From: a virus
Taxonomy: Duplodnaviria; Caudoviricetes
DNA length: 53,845 nucleotides
IMG/VR virus record: IMGVR_UViG_3300032288_000426
Location: 1-53,845 of that record
Strand: one strand, 5' to 3'
Below the pieces are notes generated by a model that saw only the letters and a list, made by a program, of their open reading frames with translations, made no database searches and was not told where the DNA came from. The position numbers and the translations under genes were made by a program. This document shows, one piece after another, positions 41,326 through 43,162 of this stretch (position 1 is the first letter of the stretch; each line of letters opens with the position of its first letter).

Positions 41326-41763
41326 TCATGTCTCCCTTGGCTCACCAAGTTGCAACGTGACAGAAATGCCGCCTTTTTCTTCCTTCACTGAATAACCCAT
41401 GCCGGGGAACGGTGGGTTACGGGAGATAGCCTTGAAGATGTTTAAGACTGTTGGGTTCTCAAAATGAGAATGCAAAACATCGTATCCGTATTGACGCGCA
41501 GCCTGAATGAACGCATAAGAGTTCTCAAGGTAGTTTCTTGCGGTATCAGCGTTGATGGCGCGGAAGAAACCTTCGCGTGGGCCTTTGTGATGGACAATGA
41601 ATAGTGTGTTTCCCTCTTTGAACAGGGTCACATTCTTTTCATTCAGTTCTGCAATAACGGCGGCATAAATATTTGCAGGCGGCAAATCTGAACCAGTTTC
41701 ATCAGCACCCAAGATGATGATTGGCTCAACTTCCAGCAAGTTTTTTTTGCTATCAACAAGCAT
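41326..41763 (-). CDS. Hypothetical alpha/beta protein, possibly GNAT-like (P22 gp14-equivalent position)
   Basis: 145 aa immediately upstream of the ejection genes; beta-beta-beta-alpha-beta pattern. The fold is inferred only. Confidence 0.45.
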   Translation of the reverse strand: MLVDSKKNLLEVEPIIILGADETGSDLPPANIYAAVIAELNEKNVTLFKEGNTLFIVHHKGPREGFFRAINADTARNYLENSYAFIQAARQYGYDVLHSHFENPTVLNIFKAISRNPPFPGMGYSVKEEKGGISVTLQLGEPRET

Positions 41764-41771
41764 CTCAATAC

Positions 41772-42881
41772 CTACAAAGGTTTGAAGATTGCTGCGCTGT
41801 AGACGTTTCCCATCCCCGCTGCAAGGCTCAGCACCGCGCCGGGTGGCGGGCTGATAGGTTCAGATAAAAATACTTCGTCACTTTCCGTCCGGTTCGGAAT
41901 CTCTGGAATAACGCCTGATCGCATGTCCTCCAAGAGCATCAAAGTTTCCAGAAGTCCACTCGCACCCATCGTATGACCGATTCTCTGCTTGTATGAAGTG
42001 GCAACAAAACTTTTAAGTGTAGATTGTAAAGCAGTTAACTCCGAAATGTTATTAGAAATTGTCCCTGTACCATGGGTTTTTACAATTCTGACATCATGCG
42101 GCTTGACTGCAGAAAACTCAAATGCGCCTTCAATGGCTTTAATAAAACCACTGCCATCTTCAAGTTGCCCAATGGCATTAGTGCTGGCCTCTGAGGCGGT
42201 ATAAGCCCCGCAGAACTCAGCAACCGGGGTATCCCCTGTCTTATTGACGGCAAGCCAATTGTCAAAGACGGCAAGGGCAGCCCCCTGTCCAACATAAAAG
42301 CCCCGGTTTTGCTTGTCAAAGGCACTTGGCTTAACGCCCGTCTTCTCTTCCTCAGCCGTCAAAACAGCCTTGGATTCACCGAAGAATTGCAGGACAGCGT
42401 TCGACACCCCATCCTCCACCGTCAGCACAATGACCCGCGCAAACCCATAGTGGCTCATCAACGTGTTCACATCCATCAGCACCTTCAGGCTTGATGCGCA
42501 GGCGCTGGAGTCAGTCACCACATGATCCTGTGCCCCACACTGCTGGGCTACCCTCCCGGCATAAACCTGCGTCAGGGTAAGTGGCAGGAACTTGTAGTCG
42601 TAACTTAACTGGCTATCGTACTTCCGCTGGTTGATTCCGGCAAAGTGGGCATTACCGCCCGCCAGAATAAAGGCCGTCTTGCCTACCTCCTGCTCCCTGA
42701 GTGTCTTCAGCAGGGCAGGATCCAGCACCTTCTCAGCCAGCTTATGAGGCGGGTACGTCAACCCCATCTTTACCTTGGCATAAGTCTCTGGGAACCAGTG
42801 AACCCGCTGCGGGTAAACTGCATCCTCCATCAACTCCACGTTACTGGTGGCCGCCGTCCTGTAATGAGTGAGATAGATCAT
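41772..42881 (-). CDS. Beta-ketoacyl-ACP synthase (FabB/FabF-like ketosynthase)
   Basis: Catalytic Cys in DSSACASSL, His in KTHGTGT, His in YKQRIGHTMGASG; also PSAFD...GFYVGQGA and SLAAGMGN. Confidence 0.9.
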   Translation of the reverse strand: MIYLTHYRTAATSNVELMEDAVYPQRVHWFPETYAKVKMGLTYPPHKLAEKVLDPALLKTLREQEVGKTAFILAGGNAHFAGINQRKYDSQLSYDYKFLPLTLTQVYAGRVAQQCGAQDHVVTDSSACASSLKVLMDVNTLMSHYGFARVIVLTVEDGVSNAVLQFFGESKAVLTAEEEKTGVKPSAFDKQNRGFYVGQGAALAVFDNWLAVNKTGDTPVAEFCGAYTASEASTNAIGQLEDGSGFIKAIEGAFEFSAVKPHDVRIVKTHGTGTISNNISELTALQSTLKSFVATSYKQRIGHTMGASGLLETLMLLEDMRSGVIPEIPNRTESDEVFLSEPISPPPGAVLSLAAGMGNVYSAAIFKPL

Positions 42882-43162
42882 TTGATGGCCTCTATCGCCG
42901 CCTCTATGGACTCCGGCTCTTTTGTCTTGTGTTGCATCAAAAAGTCGTGGATCTCACGGATTGTCACAGGGACAAGCTCTTTCCCCTTGTCTTCAGGGAT
43001 TCCGTAGAGTTCACACATATACAAACCAATTAGCAAACTATCAAGACTGTCTACGTCTATGTCTTGAAGTTGATCATCCAGACTTTTTGCATTGTCAAAA
43101 TCTGGGGACATCGGTTTTGCGACTTTTGCTGTAGCGTTAAATAGTTTTATAAAGTCGATCAT
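42878..43162 (-). CDS. Acyl carrier protein
   Basis: 94 aa, acidic; DIDVDSLDSLLIG (DSL phosphopantetheine Ser), YGIP...TIREIHDF; ATGA-coupled to the ketosynthase. Confidence 0.85.
   Translation of the reverse strand: MIDFIKLFNATAKVAKPMSPDFDNAKSLDDQLQDIDVDSLDSLLIGLYMCELYGIPEDKGKELVPVTIREIHDFLMQHKTKEPESIEAAIEAIK

What the first reader, a model, noticed from the sequence alone, without database searches (positions are those of the whole stretch)
41326..43162. Acyl carrier protein plus intact ketosynthase within the tail/ejection operon: candidate virion lipidation system
Seen: the order is tail hub (43410..45215), small Trp-rich protein, ACP (DSL motif), ketosynthase with a complete Cys-His-His triad (SACASS, HGTGT, KQRIGHT), a 145-aa protein, then five ejection-like proteins. 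All are on one strand with overlaps or gaps of a few nt. No other fatty-acid or polyketide genes (reductase, dehydratase, PPTase, FabD) were seen, and the ketosynthase N-terminus is short and divergent. Established: FabB/F enzymes act on ACP-bound acyl chains, and P22-like phages have a small assembly gene (gp14) just before the ejection genes. Inference: this is not a simple metabolic AMG but a dedicated pathway. It would draw acyl chains from host FAS onto a phage ACP (by elongation or transacylation) and transfer them, perhaps via the 145-aa protein, to a virion protein. I know of no characterised example in tailed phages.
Basis: partly seen in the sequence, partly recalled or inferred. Interest (0 to 1): 0.88.

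Follow-up and report, generated by a model that had tools for sequence, protein, structure and literature searches.

The report
Phage acyl-carrier, ketosynthase, GNAT acyl-transfer kit
An uncultured freshwater phage carries its own acyl carrier protein, a trimmed but intact fatty-acid condensing enzyme and a small acyltransferase-fold protein just ahead of its DNA-ejection genes; bacterial relatives of the first two sit between toxin-lipidating enzymes, so this may be a kit for putting a fatty chain on a phage protein.

Summary
On the minus strand lie a virion protein (43410-45215), an 82-aa ORF, a divergent ACP (42878-43162), a 369-aa ketosynthase with Cys128/His270/Lys298/His303 (41772-42881), a 145-aa protein and large ejection-like proteins. 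No PPTase, FabD, reductase or dehydratase family is found.

New here:
- The 145-aa protein has a confident GNAT fold.
- ACP-KS is an accessory pair. In a sister phage group it sits in the replication module, while the 145-aa gene stays ahead of the ejection genes. Close relatives, including two complete genomes, lack both.
- Among 10 near-complete relatives the KS and the 145-aa type are both present (4) or both absent (6).
- The slot is a cargo site that elsewhere holds a glycosyltransferase or a PF10118 hydrolase.
- The nearest cellular ACP-KS pairs (46-48% identity, Burkholderiales MAGs) are flanked by HlyC-family lysine acyltransferases, next to TolC and RTX-repeat genes.

Best reading (about 0.4): a private acyl-ACP supply plus a GNAT transferase that acylates a protein, probably the first ejection protein. 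The acceptor is not shown.

The gene's position alone is weak evidence, and virion assembly does not require the kit. This scan has met the same cassette before on other phage DNA.

The parts
43410..45215 (-).
   Evidence: phrog_3287 virion structural protein, E 1.3e-26. The orthologue in MW202545.1 is annotated 'phage stabilization protein'. It is 42.6% identical to a 'virion structural protein' of Caulobacter phage GB2A.
43165..43413 (-). 82-aa Trp-rich ORF conserved after the hub in relatives with or without the cassette
   Evidence: No Pfam or PHROG family. tblastn finds it in 36 of 81 KS loci and in KS-less relatives, including Caulobacter phage GB2A at 33%.
42878..43162 (-). Divergent acyl carrier protein, 94 aa; Ser39 (codon 43046-43048) in an invariant LDSxD motif
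   Evidence: Family alignment A1. The family profile hits ACPs in the PDB. PF00550 matches 11 of 24 members. AF2 pLDDT is 92.1, with ACP-only but weak Foldseek neighbours. It lies directly upstream of the KS in 80 of 81 loci; the exception is cut by a contig end.
41772..42881 (-). 369-aa FabF-like ketosynthase with a trimmed N-terminus; Cys128 (42498-42500), His270 (42072-42074), Lys298 (41988-41990), His303 (41973-41975)
   Evidence: Pfam, PDB alignment, family alignment A4, codon check. phrog_35856 scores 9e-42. It falls below every NCBIfam cut-off.
41326..41763 (-). 145-aa GNAT-fold protein in the 'gp14 position' at the head of the ejection genes; candidate acyl-ACP-dependent transferase
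   Evidence: AF2 pLDDT 91.4, pTM 0.85. Foldseek and VIA matches are GNAT acetyl/acyltransferases, Z 9.6-11.3, rmsd 2.5-3.4 over 114-132 residues. Viral library hits include 'Internal virion protein A' at ranks 13 and 31. It co-occurs with the KS. The complex with the ACP has weak support only.
39519..41324 (-). First large ejection-like protein (about 600 aa, Ala/Gly-rich hydrophobic N-terminal part); candidate acceptor, by inference only
   Evidence: ORF; its ATG at 41324 lies 1 nt after the p145 stop. No family hit. Candidate acceptor by position only, by analogy with hlyC-hlyA-type adjacency.
33175..39516 (-). Four further large ejection-like proteins (555, 293, 770 and 488 aa)
   Evidence: ORFs. 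Only weak tape-measure-like PHROG hits for the 555-aa protein. The block in MW202545.1 ends with a 'transglycosylase slt domain' protein and that in GB2A with a 'lytic tail protein'.

Best explanation
The three genes form an accessory, phage-borne acyl-transfer kit.

Inferred steps, none shown:
1. The host's AcpS makes the phage ACP holo, and the host's FabD loads it with malonate. The phage encodes neither enzyme.
2. The trimmed ketosynthase takes an acyl chain from the host's fatty-acid pool onto Cys128. It condenses the chain with malonyl-phage-ACP, which parks a (3-oxo)acyl chain on a private carrier that host enzymes use poorly.
3. The GNAT-fold 145-aa protein uses that acyl-ACP to N-acylate an acceptor.
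4. The most likely acceptor is a protein made from the genes that follow it: the first ejection protein, which must enter the host envelope. The logic is that of HlyC/HlyA, CdiC/CdiA and IacP/SipB.

Shown: the three proteins, their catalytic or fold features, their co-occurrence, and the link of cellular ACP-KS relatives to HlyC-type acyltransferases and RTX genes.

The kit is optional equipment, not part of the core virion assembly line.
For: 1. The enzymes look functional and are under selection. The KS catalytic residues are invariant across a family that diverges down to 28% identity. The KS is 58-72% identical among loci whose hub is 38-65% and whose p145 is 34-59% identical.

2. p145 has a GNAT fold.

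3. Coupling without linkage. In records G001 and G004 the ACP-KS pair sits after an SNF2 helicase in the replication module, while a p145 homologue stays between the 82-aa ORF and the ejection genes. I took the 50 longest of the 79 records drawn with a neutral structural marker. Ten of them are at least 70% complete: 4 have both KS and p145, 6 have neither, and none is discordant.

4. In KS-less relatives whose hub is 54-67% identical, the protein in the same position is only 13-19% identical to p145. One of them keeps 2 of 9 p145-invariant residues (hhalign probability 92.6). KS-bearing phages with hubs of only 38-45% identity keep p145 at 36-45%.

5. Cellular precedent by descent. KS relatives at 46-48% identity (ACP 34-38%) in Burkholderiales MAGs and metagenome contigs lie in the order HlyC-like, ACP, KS, HlyC-like. 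A HlyC-like gene lies upstream of the ACP in 5 of 5 loci, and one lies downstream of the KS in 3 of the 3 loci that reach that far. PF02794 scores 75.1, 66.6 and 30.5 bits. TolC-like and RTX-repeat genes follow (PF00353, 2e-44). This clade is a starred neighbour of the phage clade and is not nested in it (quick tree).

6. Published analogues, abstracts read: a dedicated ACP (IacP) acylates the T3SS translocon protein SipB and promotes its membrane insertion (PMC5279801). A HlyC-type enzyme (CdiC) lipidates CdiA (PMC8510554).

7. Predicted p145-ACP complex: weak support only. The score is 0.41 against 0.00 for the best of 3 controls. The mark was reached by 58 of 80 solved complexes and 2 of 110 mismatched pairs. 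At 0.60 or under it was reached by only 7 of those 80 and by both mismatches. The runs agree in 100% of contacts and the partner's pLDDT is at least 87.
Against: - No acceptor is identified, and no acylation chemistry is shown.
- p145 has no detectable sequence kinship to HlyC-family proteins (hhalign probability under 1%; PF02794 absent from the window). By eye it lacks the usual GNAT Q/R-x-x-G-x-G/A loop (alignment).
- GNAT-fold proteins head the ejection block in many podoviruses that have no ACP or KS. 'Internal virion protein A' hits appear, and P22 gene 14 holds the same position. p145 may therefore be native to the module and ACP-KS merely inserted beside it.
- The co-occurrence may reflect few evolutionary events. 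The tree forces only one relocation of the pair from the virion slot to the replication module.
- The slot also holds unrelated cargo: a PF11397 glycosyltransferase and a PF10118 hydrolase.
- Complete relatives do without the kit.
- In context B the pair lies among replication genes, not among virion genes.
- The complex score is in the range that is more often wrong than right.
- An earlier check within this scan priced the bold reading of a sister cassette at 25 in 100 (note e1-3412207).
Confidence: 0.4

Rival explanations
1. Auxiliary metabolic pair. ACP and KS boost or re-route the host's type II fatty-acid synthesis during infection, for example to keep membrane lipid supply going. The 145-aa protein is simply the usual small GNAT-fold protein of the ejection module and has nothing to do with them.
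For: - The pair is a self-contained, mobile two-gene unit. The ACP lies next to the KS in 80 of 81 loci. The pair sits in two genome contexts, one of them among replication and nucleotide-metabolism genes.
- It is accessory: 7 of 50 related records carry it.
- The slot is a cargo site for other enzymes.
- GNAT-fold proteins named 'Internal virion protein A', and P22 gene 14 in the same position, exist without any ACP or KS.
- All other FAS steps must come from the host anyway.
Against: - A host already has AcpP and FabF/FabB. A carrier about as far from AcpP as an ACP can be (no Pfam hit for the window's own copy), paired with a KS far below every curated FabF/FabB cut-off, looks built for separation from host FAS, not for feeding it.
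- The p145 type tracks KS presence rather than the phylogeny of neighbouring genes.
- The nearest cellular relatives sit in a protein-acylation locus and in a secondary-lipid cluster, not in fab operons.
Confidence: 0.25
2. Small-molecule or envelope-lipid pathway. ACP, KS and the GNAT enzyme make an N-acyl compound (an N-acyl amino acid, an aminolipid or a signal-like molecule), or acylate a host envelope component. The purpose would be, for example, to block superinfection or re-adsorption. No virion protein is modified.
For: - GNAT-fold enzymes that take acyl-ACP to make small N-acyl products are known (LuxI and FeeM types, recalled). TofI appears among the fold hits at rank 27, with TM only 0.39.
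- The same slot elsewhere carries a glycosyltransferase (PF11397) or a hydrolase (PF10118) together with a p145-like protein. Such enzymes are typical of surface or metabolite modification.
- The more distant cellular relatives of the KS (32-37% identity, Campylobacterota MAGs) sit in a cluster with a thioesterase, a second KS, a methyltransferase, an AMP-ligase and transporters.
- Early expression, as expected for context B, would suit action on the host.
Against: - p145 stays at the head of the ejection genes in both contexts.
- The closest cellular relatives (46-48% identity) are tied to protein acyltransferases and RTX genes, not to the small-molecule cluster.
- No export, amino-acid-activating or further tailoring gene accompanies the phage cassette.
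Confidence: 0.2
3. Host-takeover decoy. The divergent ACP, with or without the KS, binds and blocks host ACP-dependent enzymes or drains malonyl units. It makes no product that the phage uses.
For: Only general points: the ACP is highly divergent, and phages often carry mimics of host hub proteins (recalled).
Against: - The phosphopantetheine serine and the complete KS catalytic set are invariant across the family. A pure binder would not need them.
- The strict pairing with a KS points to catalysis.
Confidence: 0.05

Closest known systems
RTX toxin-activating lysine acyltransferases (HlyC/CyaC/ApxC family, PF02794) working from acyl-ACP, including CdiC acting on CdiA
   Same: A small acyltransferase is encoded next to its membrane-active protein substrate and uses acyl-ACP. 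The nearest cellular relatives of this phage's ACP-KS pair are flanked by PF02794 genes beside TolC and RTX-repeat genes. The CdiC/CdiA lipidation is taken from the abstract of PMC8510554.
   Different: p145 is not a recognisable PF02794 member. Classical HlyC systems use the housekeeping ACP and have no KS (recalled). The acceptor here would be a phage ejection protein, and that is not shown.
IacP, the dedicated acyl carrier protein of Salmonella SPI-1 that acylates the T3SS translocon protein SipB
   Same: A private ACP is encoded within the genes of a membrane-perforating delivery machine, and acylation promotes membrane insertion (PMC5279801, abstract).
   Different: No KS or GNAT partner is mentioned in that abstract. 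The SipB modification needs a cysteine. I tested no homology between the two ACPs.
Type II fatty-acid synthase pair AcpP + FabF/FabB
   Same: Thiolase-fold condensing enzyme with a Cys-His-His triad plus Lys. PF00109 and PF02801 match, FabF structures are the best solved relatives, and the carrier has the serine motif.
   Different: - About 27% identity over residues 99-335 only.
- About 40-50 residues shorter at the N-terminus.
- TIGR03150 scores 105 bits against a cut-off of 494.
- Altered accessory motifs: GQG for GEG, and AGMGN for the usual C-terminal glycine-rich loop (seen; the FabF side is recalled).
- The ACP is below the Pfam threshold.
P22 gene 14 (PF11039) and T7 gp13-type 'internal virion protein A'
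   Same: A protein of about 150 aa is encoded directly before the injection/ejection genes; P22 has the gene order 26-14-7-20-16. Fold hits to proteins named 'Internal virion protein A' appear at E 1e-4 to 1e-3. Language-model neighbours partly carry PF11039, in 10-27% of cluster members.
   Different: No sequence match: PF11039 is absent from the window and hhalign against P22 gp14 gives probability 0.1%. The fold similarity is weak (TM 0.48-0.50). Those phages have no ACP or KS.
NodF/NodE of rhizobia (specialised ACP + KS; recalled, not tested here)
   Same: A gene pair of a specialised ACP followed by a specialised KS. It relies on the housekeeping FAS for the other steps and feeds an N-acyltransferase.
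   Different: Its product is a lipo-chitooligosaccharide.

Membership tests
Beta-ketoacyl-ACP synthase superfamily (PF00109/PF02801) | Both Pfam KS domains score above their gathering scores | tested here: met
   PF02801 scores 59 bits and PF00109 36.2 bits; the cut-off is 20.8 for each.
Beta-ketoacyl-ACP synthase superfamily (PF00109/PF02801) | Cys-His-His catalytic triad plus the conserved Lys of elongating (decarboxylating) KS | tested here: met
   C128, H270, K298 and H303 align with the FabF residues. C, the first H and K are invariant and the second H is kept in 33 of 34 family members. Codons checked.
FabF / KAS II (NCBIfam TIGR03150 equivalog) and other curated KS equivalogs | Whole-protein score above the curated cut-off | tested here: not met
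   The best hit is fabF at 105.4 bits against a cut-off of 493.75. All 18 listed families score below their cut-offs.
Acyl carrier protein (PF00550, PP-binding) | Pfam model match | tested here: inconclusive
   The window's own protein gets no hit at E<=0.1. 11 of 24 family members match at E<=0.1, best 9.8e-5 (18.3 bits for the L068 copy against a cut-off of 20.8).
Acyl carrier protein (PF00550, PP-binding) | Conserved serine in a D-S-L motif at the start of helix II of a small helical bundle | tested here: met
   D38, S39 and D41 are invariant in 24 sequences. The family profile aligns the motif with the ACP attachment site. In the AF2 model a helix starts at residue 39. Fold neighbours are ACPs, but weakly, best E 6e-3.
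Acyl carrier protein (PF00550, PP-binding) | Phosphopantetheinylation of the serine | not testable with these tools
   No PPTase gene (PF01648) is present in the phage record, so a host enzyme would be needed.
GNAT acyltransferase superfamily | GNAT fold topology | tested here: met
   The model has pLDDT 91.4. 33 Foldseek PDB hits have E<=0.001, nearly all GNAT enzymes. VIA gives Z 9.6-11.3 over 114-132 of 145 residues.
GNAT acyltransferase superfamily | Q/R-x-x-G-x-G/A pyrophosphate-binding loop between strand 4 and helix 3 | tested here: inconclusive
   By eye the loop reads N-A-D-T-A-x-N in alignment A2, with no glycine pair. The motif itself is recalled, and I made no residue-level structural superposition.
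HlyC / RTX toxin-activating acyltransferase (PF02794) | Match to the family model, or profile similarity to members | tested here: not met
   No PF02794 match in the window at E<=10. hhalign of the p145 profile against the two HlyC-like proteins of L329 gives probability 0.5% and 0.1%.
P22 gp14 family (PF11039, DUF2824) | Match to the family model | tested here: not met
   PF11039 finds P22 gene 14 at 2e-54 but nothing in the window at E<=10. hhalign against P22 gp14 gives probability 0.1%.
P22 gp14 family (PF11039, DUF2824) | Position: a small gene directly upstream of the injection/ejection genes | tested here: met
   P22 has the order 10-26-14-7-20-16. In the window, p145 lies directly before the 39519-41324 ORF.

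The most novel reading that the evidence does not exclude
Tailed phages lipidate one of their own ejection proteins. A private ACP-KS pair shares ancestry with an undescribed bacterial HlyC-ACP-KS-HlyC cassette that serves RTX/T1SS proteins. It charges a phage carrier with a fatty chain, and a GNAT-fold enzyme at the head of the ejection operon writes that chain onto the protein that must breach the host envelope. The wider class of small GNAT-fold 'gp14-position' proteins of podoviruses would then be protein acyl- or acetyltransferases for ejection proteins.
Probability: 0.3. Interest if true: 0.85.

Novelty: new variant of a known kind. Interest (0 to 1): 0.66.

Why it matters
Lipidation by way of acyl-ACP is known for secreted bacterial weapons: RTX toxins, CdiA and the SPI-1 translocon. 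My full-text searches found no description of it for a phage particle.

If the reading is true, it would explain how some short-tailed phages help their ejection proteins enter membranes. It would also give a function to the puzzling small GNAT-fold gene at the head of podovirus ejection operons. And it would uncover a widespread family of trimmed ketosynthases with private carriers, represented by more than a thousand sequence clusters in metagenomes.

Independently of the phage question, the Burkholderiales cassette suggests that some RTX-type proteins are acylated from a dedicated ACP-KS supply rather than from the housekeeping pool.

If the plain metabolic reading is right instead, the pair is still an unusual auxiliary gene set of abundant freshwater phages.

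Tried and rejected
I therefore could not look up the contexts of the distant KS representatives P0131-P0167. An alignment-based scan of viral contigs for them returned mostly the already known phage type and added nothing.
- Megablast of the region against GenBank phages found nothing. By protein, only one true phage record carries the KS, MW202545.1. The other 18 'phage' hits are 22-29% identical, FabF-like stretches, mostly in unannotated records, and I set them aside.
- p145 profile against PDB sequences: no hit at E<=10.
- p145 against the 98-aa ORF that follows the KS in context B: no similarity.
- The 158-aa ORF of L328 (11399-11875) against the p145 profile and the PDB: nothing. It overlaps the stretch that tblastn matches to the 97-aa ORF of L329.
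- Promoter and terminator scan: 10 promoter-like sites against 7.5 +/- 3.2 expected, none convincingly in front of the ACP. The best site (10 of 12) lies inside the KS gene. No evidence for a promoter of the cassette's own.
- Tree: the careful search did not finish in the time allowed. What I cite is the quick IQ-TREE result with SH-aLRT support, rooted on one very long outgroup branch. I draw no donor or direction from it.
- In one search my slot-picking heuristic mistook the ACP ORF for the slot protein in about 14 KS-bearing loci (values 8-17%).
- L323 (Rhodocyclaceae MAG, KS 68% identical, nested within the phage clade) has no recognisable phage, p145 or HlyC neighbour. I could not explain it.
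Supplementary files were not consulted.
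Full report
WHAT IS THERE. The window is a nearly complete genome of an uncultured tailed phage: 53,845 bases, 95% complete by the record's own estimate. It carries a terminase (16525-17976), a portal (9837-12323), a major head protein (5945-6859), tail fibres, a holin and an endolysin.

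On the minus strand the genes run in this order:
- a 209-aa virion protein;
- a 412-aa protein;
- a 601-aa virion protein (43410-45215; phrog_3287, 1.3e-26);
- an 82-aa ORF (43165-43413);
- a 94-aa ORF (42878-43162);
- a 369-aa ORF (41772-42881);
- a 145-aa ORF (41326-41763);
- five large proteins without family matches, apart from weak tape-measure-like hits in one of them.

Junctions are a 4-nt overlap or gaps of 1 to 8 nt. A promoter and terminator scan gave nothing beyond chance.

THE KETOSYNTHASE. The 369-aa protein matches both Pfam ketosynthase domains. It aligns with solved FabF enzymes over residues 99-335 (best 2rjt, E 6.8e-22), with Cys128, His270, Lys298 and His303 in register. In an alignment of 34 family members down to 28% identity, Cys, the first His and Lys are invariant. 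The second His is kept in 33; one member has Asn.

Its first ~98 residues match nothing solved, and the protein is some 40-50 residues shorter than FabF. It scores far below every curated NCBIfam cut-off (fabF 105 bits against 494). It is therefore a catalytically intact but separate branch of the KS superfamily.

THE CARRIER. Alone, the 94-aa protein gets no Pfam or PDB hit. With 23 homologues it shows an invariant L-D-S-x-D. The family profile finds ACPs almost exclusively (59 of the 60 rows shown, best E 0.0011) and lays Ser39 on the attachment serine. 11 of 24 members reach PF00550 at E<=0.1. The AF2 model (pLDDT 92.1) has only ACP-type neighbours, though none at E<=0.001. It lies directly upstream of the KS in 80 of 81 loci; the exception is cut by the contig end. 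I accept it as a very divergent ACP.

THE 145-AA PROTEIN. With 19 homologues it folds confidently (pLDDT 91.4, pTM 0.85) into a GNAT fold. Foldseek gives 33 PDB hits at E<=0.001, nearly all GNAT acetyl- or acyltransferases. VIA gives Z 9.6-11.3, rmsd 2.5-3.4 A over 114-132 residues.

It has many invariant polar residues (D4, S5, E39, N52, R63, R68, N71, D73, N77, D95, R143; H58 nearly). By eye it lacks the usual glycine-rich CoA loop.

In the viral structure library its best neighbours are uncharacterised phage proteins of 125-166 aa. Two entries named 'Internal virion protein A' appear at ranks 13 and 31. Language-model neighbours are viral clusters that partly carry PF11039 or GNAT families.

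PF11039 is P22 gene 14, the small gene just before P22's injection genes. By sequence, p145 is not a member.

NOTHING ELSE OF THE PATHWAY. PPTase, FabD, short-chain reductase and FabA/Z families are absent from the record. The same searches ring in 10-14 of 14 control genomes.

HOW WIDESPREAD, AND WHERE IN THE GENOME. The KS has 1,460 homologous sequence clusters at E<=0.001 among the 8,000 candidates scored. The top 120 are all 329-375 aa and 67-97% identical, on contigs mostly up to about 58 kb.

Among 1.84 billion cluster representatives, 58 reach E<=1e-30. They include a series of ~330-390-aa proteins down to about 30% identity; beyond them come giant polyketide synthases at 25-29%.

In 81 loci (80 from IMG/VR plus GenBank MW202545.1) two contexts appear:
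- In 55 the order is as in the window: hub, 82-aa ORF, ACP, KS, p145, ejection genes.
- In 23 the pair follows an SNF2-type helicase in a replication block with primase, exonuclease, SSB and ribonucleotide reductase. It is followed there by unrelated small ORFs.
- Of the other 3, 2 are cut just after the KS. In one (L035) the ejection genes lie inverted downstream.

On a quick tree the replication-context KS form one group nested inside the virion-context KS (12 rows; one change is not ruled out). This suggests a single relocation.

THE 145-AA GENE STAYS PUT. Two replication-context records span both modules: G001 (47% complete) and G004 (91%). Both keep a p145 homologue between the 82-aa ORF and the ejection genes, far from ACP-KS. 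Searching with p145 gave 80 loci. 77 have ACP-KS directly upstream and 3 do not: L151, which is G001, and two fragments.

THE KIT IS OPTIONAL. With a neutral marker, the 209-aa virion protein, I drew 79 further related loci:
- 25 have the 82-aa ORF but neither KS nor p145 after it;
- 7 have the full cassette;
- 1 has p145 alone;
- 3 have a 243-250-aa ORF plus a divergent p145-like protein;
- 43 are cut too early.

I searched the 50 longest of these 79 records whole. The KS is in 7 and p145 in 10. Of the 10 that are at least 70% complete, 4 have both and 6 have neither, including two complete genomes with terminal repeats. None is discordant. Records with p145 but no KS are all fragments (10-40% complete).

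The cultured relatives by hub protein (42.6% identity) are Caulobacter phages GB2A, RW, RLK and KcrB. They go from the hub and a 78-aa ORF straight to the large proteins and lack all three genes.

THE SLOT IS A CARGO SITE. After the 82-aa ORF, relatives carry one of the following:
- nothing (11 of 29 KS-less loci);
- a 120-169-aa protein;
- a PF11397 glycosyltransferase, alone in three loci, or ahead of ACP-KS-p145 in L220;
- a PF10118 metal-dependent hydrolase followed by a divergent p145-like protein.

The small proteins of KS-less phages are remote homologues of p145. For L190, hhalign gives probability 92.6, E 4.6e-7; for L188, probability 35; L190 against L188 gives blastp 2e-8. They are only 13-19% identical to p145, although their neighbouring hub is 54-67% identical. 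L190's protein keeps 2 of 9 p145-invariant residues in the aligned stretch. KS-bearing phages with hubs of only 38-45% identity keep p145 at 36-45%.

The p145 type thus follows the KS rather than the neighbouring structural genes. This is the best in-phage evidence for a functional link. It could still come from few evolutionary events.

CELLULAR RELATIVES. A scan of one genome per prokaryote species found 13 family members. Below them come ordinary FabF or PKS ketosynthases at 30% identity or less over part of the length.
- Several are phage-type contigs binned into MAGs: Polaromonas and Balneolaceae contigs carry ACP-KS-p145 plus ejection genes.
- Two Burkholderiales MAG loci differ: L328, on an 890-kb contig, and L329. 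There the order is HlyC-like (131 aa), ACP, KS (46-48% identical to the phage KS), HlyC-like (152 aa). TolC-like, LuxR-type regulator and RTX-repeat genes lie beside them.
- PF02794 scores 75.1 and 30.5 bits in one genome and 66.6 bits in the other. PF00353 scores 2e-44 on the 807-aa neighbour.
- A metagenome scan added three more loci of this type. Across the five, a HlyC-like gene precedes the ACP in 5 of 5. One follows the KS in 3 of the 3 loci that reach that far.
- On the quick tree this group (98% SH-aLRT) stands beside the phage clade (99%), not within it.
- A more distant group (32-37% identity, Campylobacterota MAGs) sits in a cluster with an ABC transporter, a 4HBT thioesterase, a second KS, an O-methyltransferase and an AMP-ligase.

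None of these cellular relatives sits in a fab operon. HlyC-family enzymes acylate lysines of secreted proteins from acyl-ACP (established knowledge; see the abstract of PMC8510554 for CdiC). In the closest cellular relatives, therefore, the gene in p145's place is an acyl-ACP-dependent protein acyltransferase. p145 itself shows no sequence kinship to it.

READING. Published cases show the same logic in bacterial delivery machines: IacP with SipB (PMC5279801, abstract) and CdiC with CdiA (PMC8510554, abstract).

A predicted p145-ACP complex gave only weak support. The score was 0.41, and the best of 3 controls scored 0.00. The mark was reached by 58 of 80 solved complexes and 2 of 110 mismatched pairs. 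At 0.60 or under it was reached by only 7 of those 80 and by both mismatches. The runs agree in 100% of contacts and the partner's pLDDT is at least 87.

Against the reading:
- the position in the tail/ejection operon is not fixed;
- the slot collects unrelated cargo;
- the kit is dispensable;
- small GNAT-fold proteins head ejection operons in phages without ACP or KS;
- no acceptor is known.

I put the acyl-transfer-to-protein reading at about 0.4, a plain metabolic pair at 0.25, a small-molecule or envelope pathway at 0.2 and a decoy at 0.05.

EARLIER NOTES OF THIS SCAN. The same cassette has been noted and followed up several times on other phage DNA, with the same general verdict. One later check priced the bold reading at 25 in 100. 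Those notes gave me the lead to the gp14/gp13 class, which I tested. A word search of the notes for RTX, HlyC, ketosynthase, Burkholderiales and TolC together found nothing. The cellular HlyC-ACP-KS-HlyC loci therefore appear to be new to the scan.

LIMITS.
- The host is unknown.
- 'Hub' and 'ejection' labels are inferred.
- The tree is a quick one.
- Supplements of papers were not read.

Noticed in passing
L328:7277-13290, L329:1229-7548, L409, L410, L414: Environmental Burkholderiales loci carry a conserved cassette: HlyC-like, ACP, trimmed KS, HlyC-like. It lies next to TolC-like, LuxR-type regulator and RTX-repeat genes. This suggests RTX-type protein acylation from a dedicated ACP-KS supply. 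My one literature search on this found no description of it.
   Followed up: partly
L330:5508-16690 (also L331, L333): Campylobacterota MAGs hold a distant member of the same KS family (32-37% identity) with an ACP. The cluster also has an ABC transporter, a 4HBT thioesterase, a second KS, an O-methyltransferase, an RND-like protein and an AMP-ligase. It looks like an uncharacterised lipid or polyketide-type gene cluster.
   Followed up: partly
L242:4279-5226, L184:9027-9980, L220:14297-15247; L241:9569-10300, L209:8055-8792: In related phages the same slot after the 82-aa ORF holds a PF11397 (GlcNAc-type) glycosyltransferase, or a PF10118 metal-dependent hydrolase followed by a divergent p145-like protein. 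The site is a hot spot for enzyme cargo.
   Followed up: partly
L323:7720-9128: A Rhodocyclaceae MAG contig of 89.7 kb carries an ACP-KS pair that nests inside the phage clade (KS 68% identical). Its neighbours are DUF6345, an FAD/NAD oxidoreductase and others, with no recognisable phage, p145 or HlyC gene. Unexplained.
   Followed up: partly
window 12335-16528 (minus strand): A 1,397-aa ORF lies between the terminase and portal genes. Its only family match is an endolysin-like stretch (phrog_7348, residues 975-1169). It is possibly a large head-internal or ejected multi-domain protein.
   Followed up: no
protein P0167 (alignment A4): One distant family member has Asn in place of the second catalytic His (Cys-His-Asn, as in initiating KS III-type enzymes). 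The other 33 keep His.
   Followed up: no
L068:448-1035 and neighbouring genes: The replication-context phages encode a sigma-70-like factor, a D5-type primase, an SNF2 helicase, a DUF2800/PD-(D/E)XK exonuclease, a Gp2.5-like SSB and a class II ribonucleotide reductase around the ACP-KS pair.
   Followed up: no
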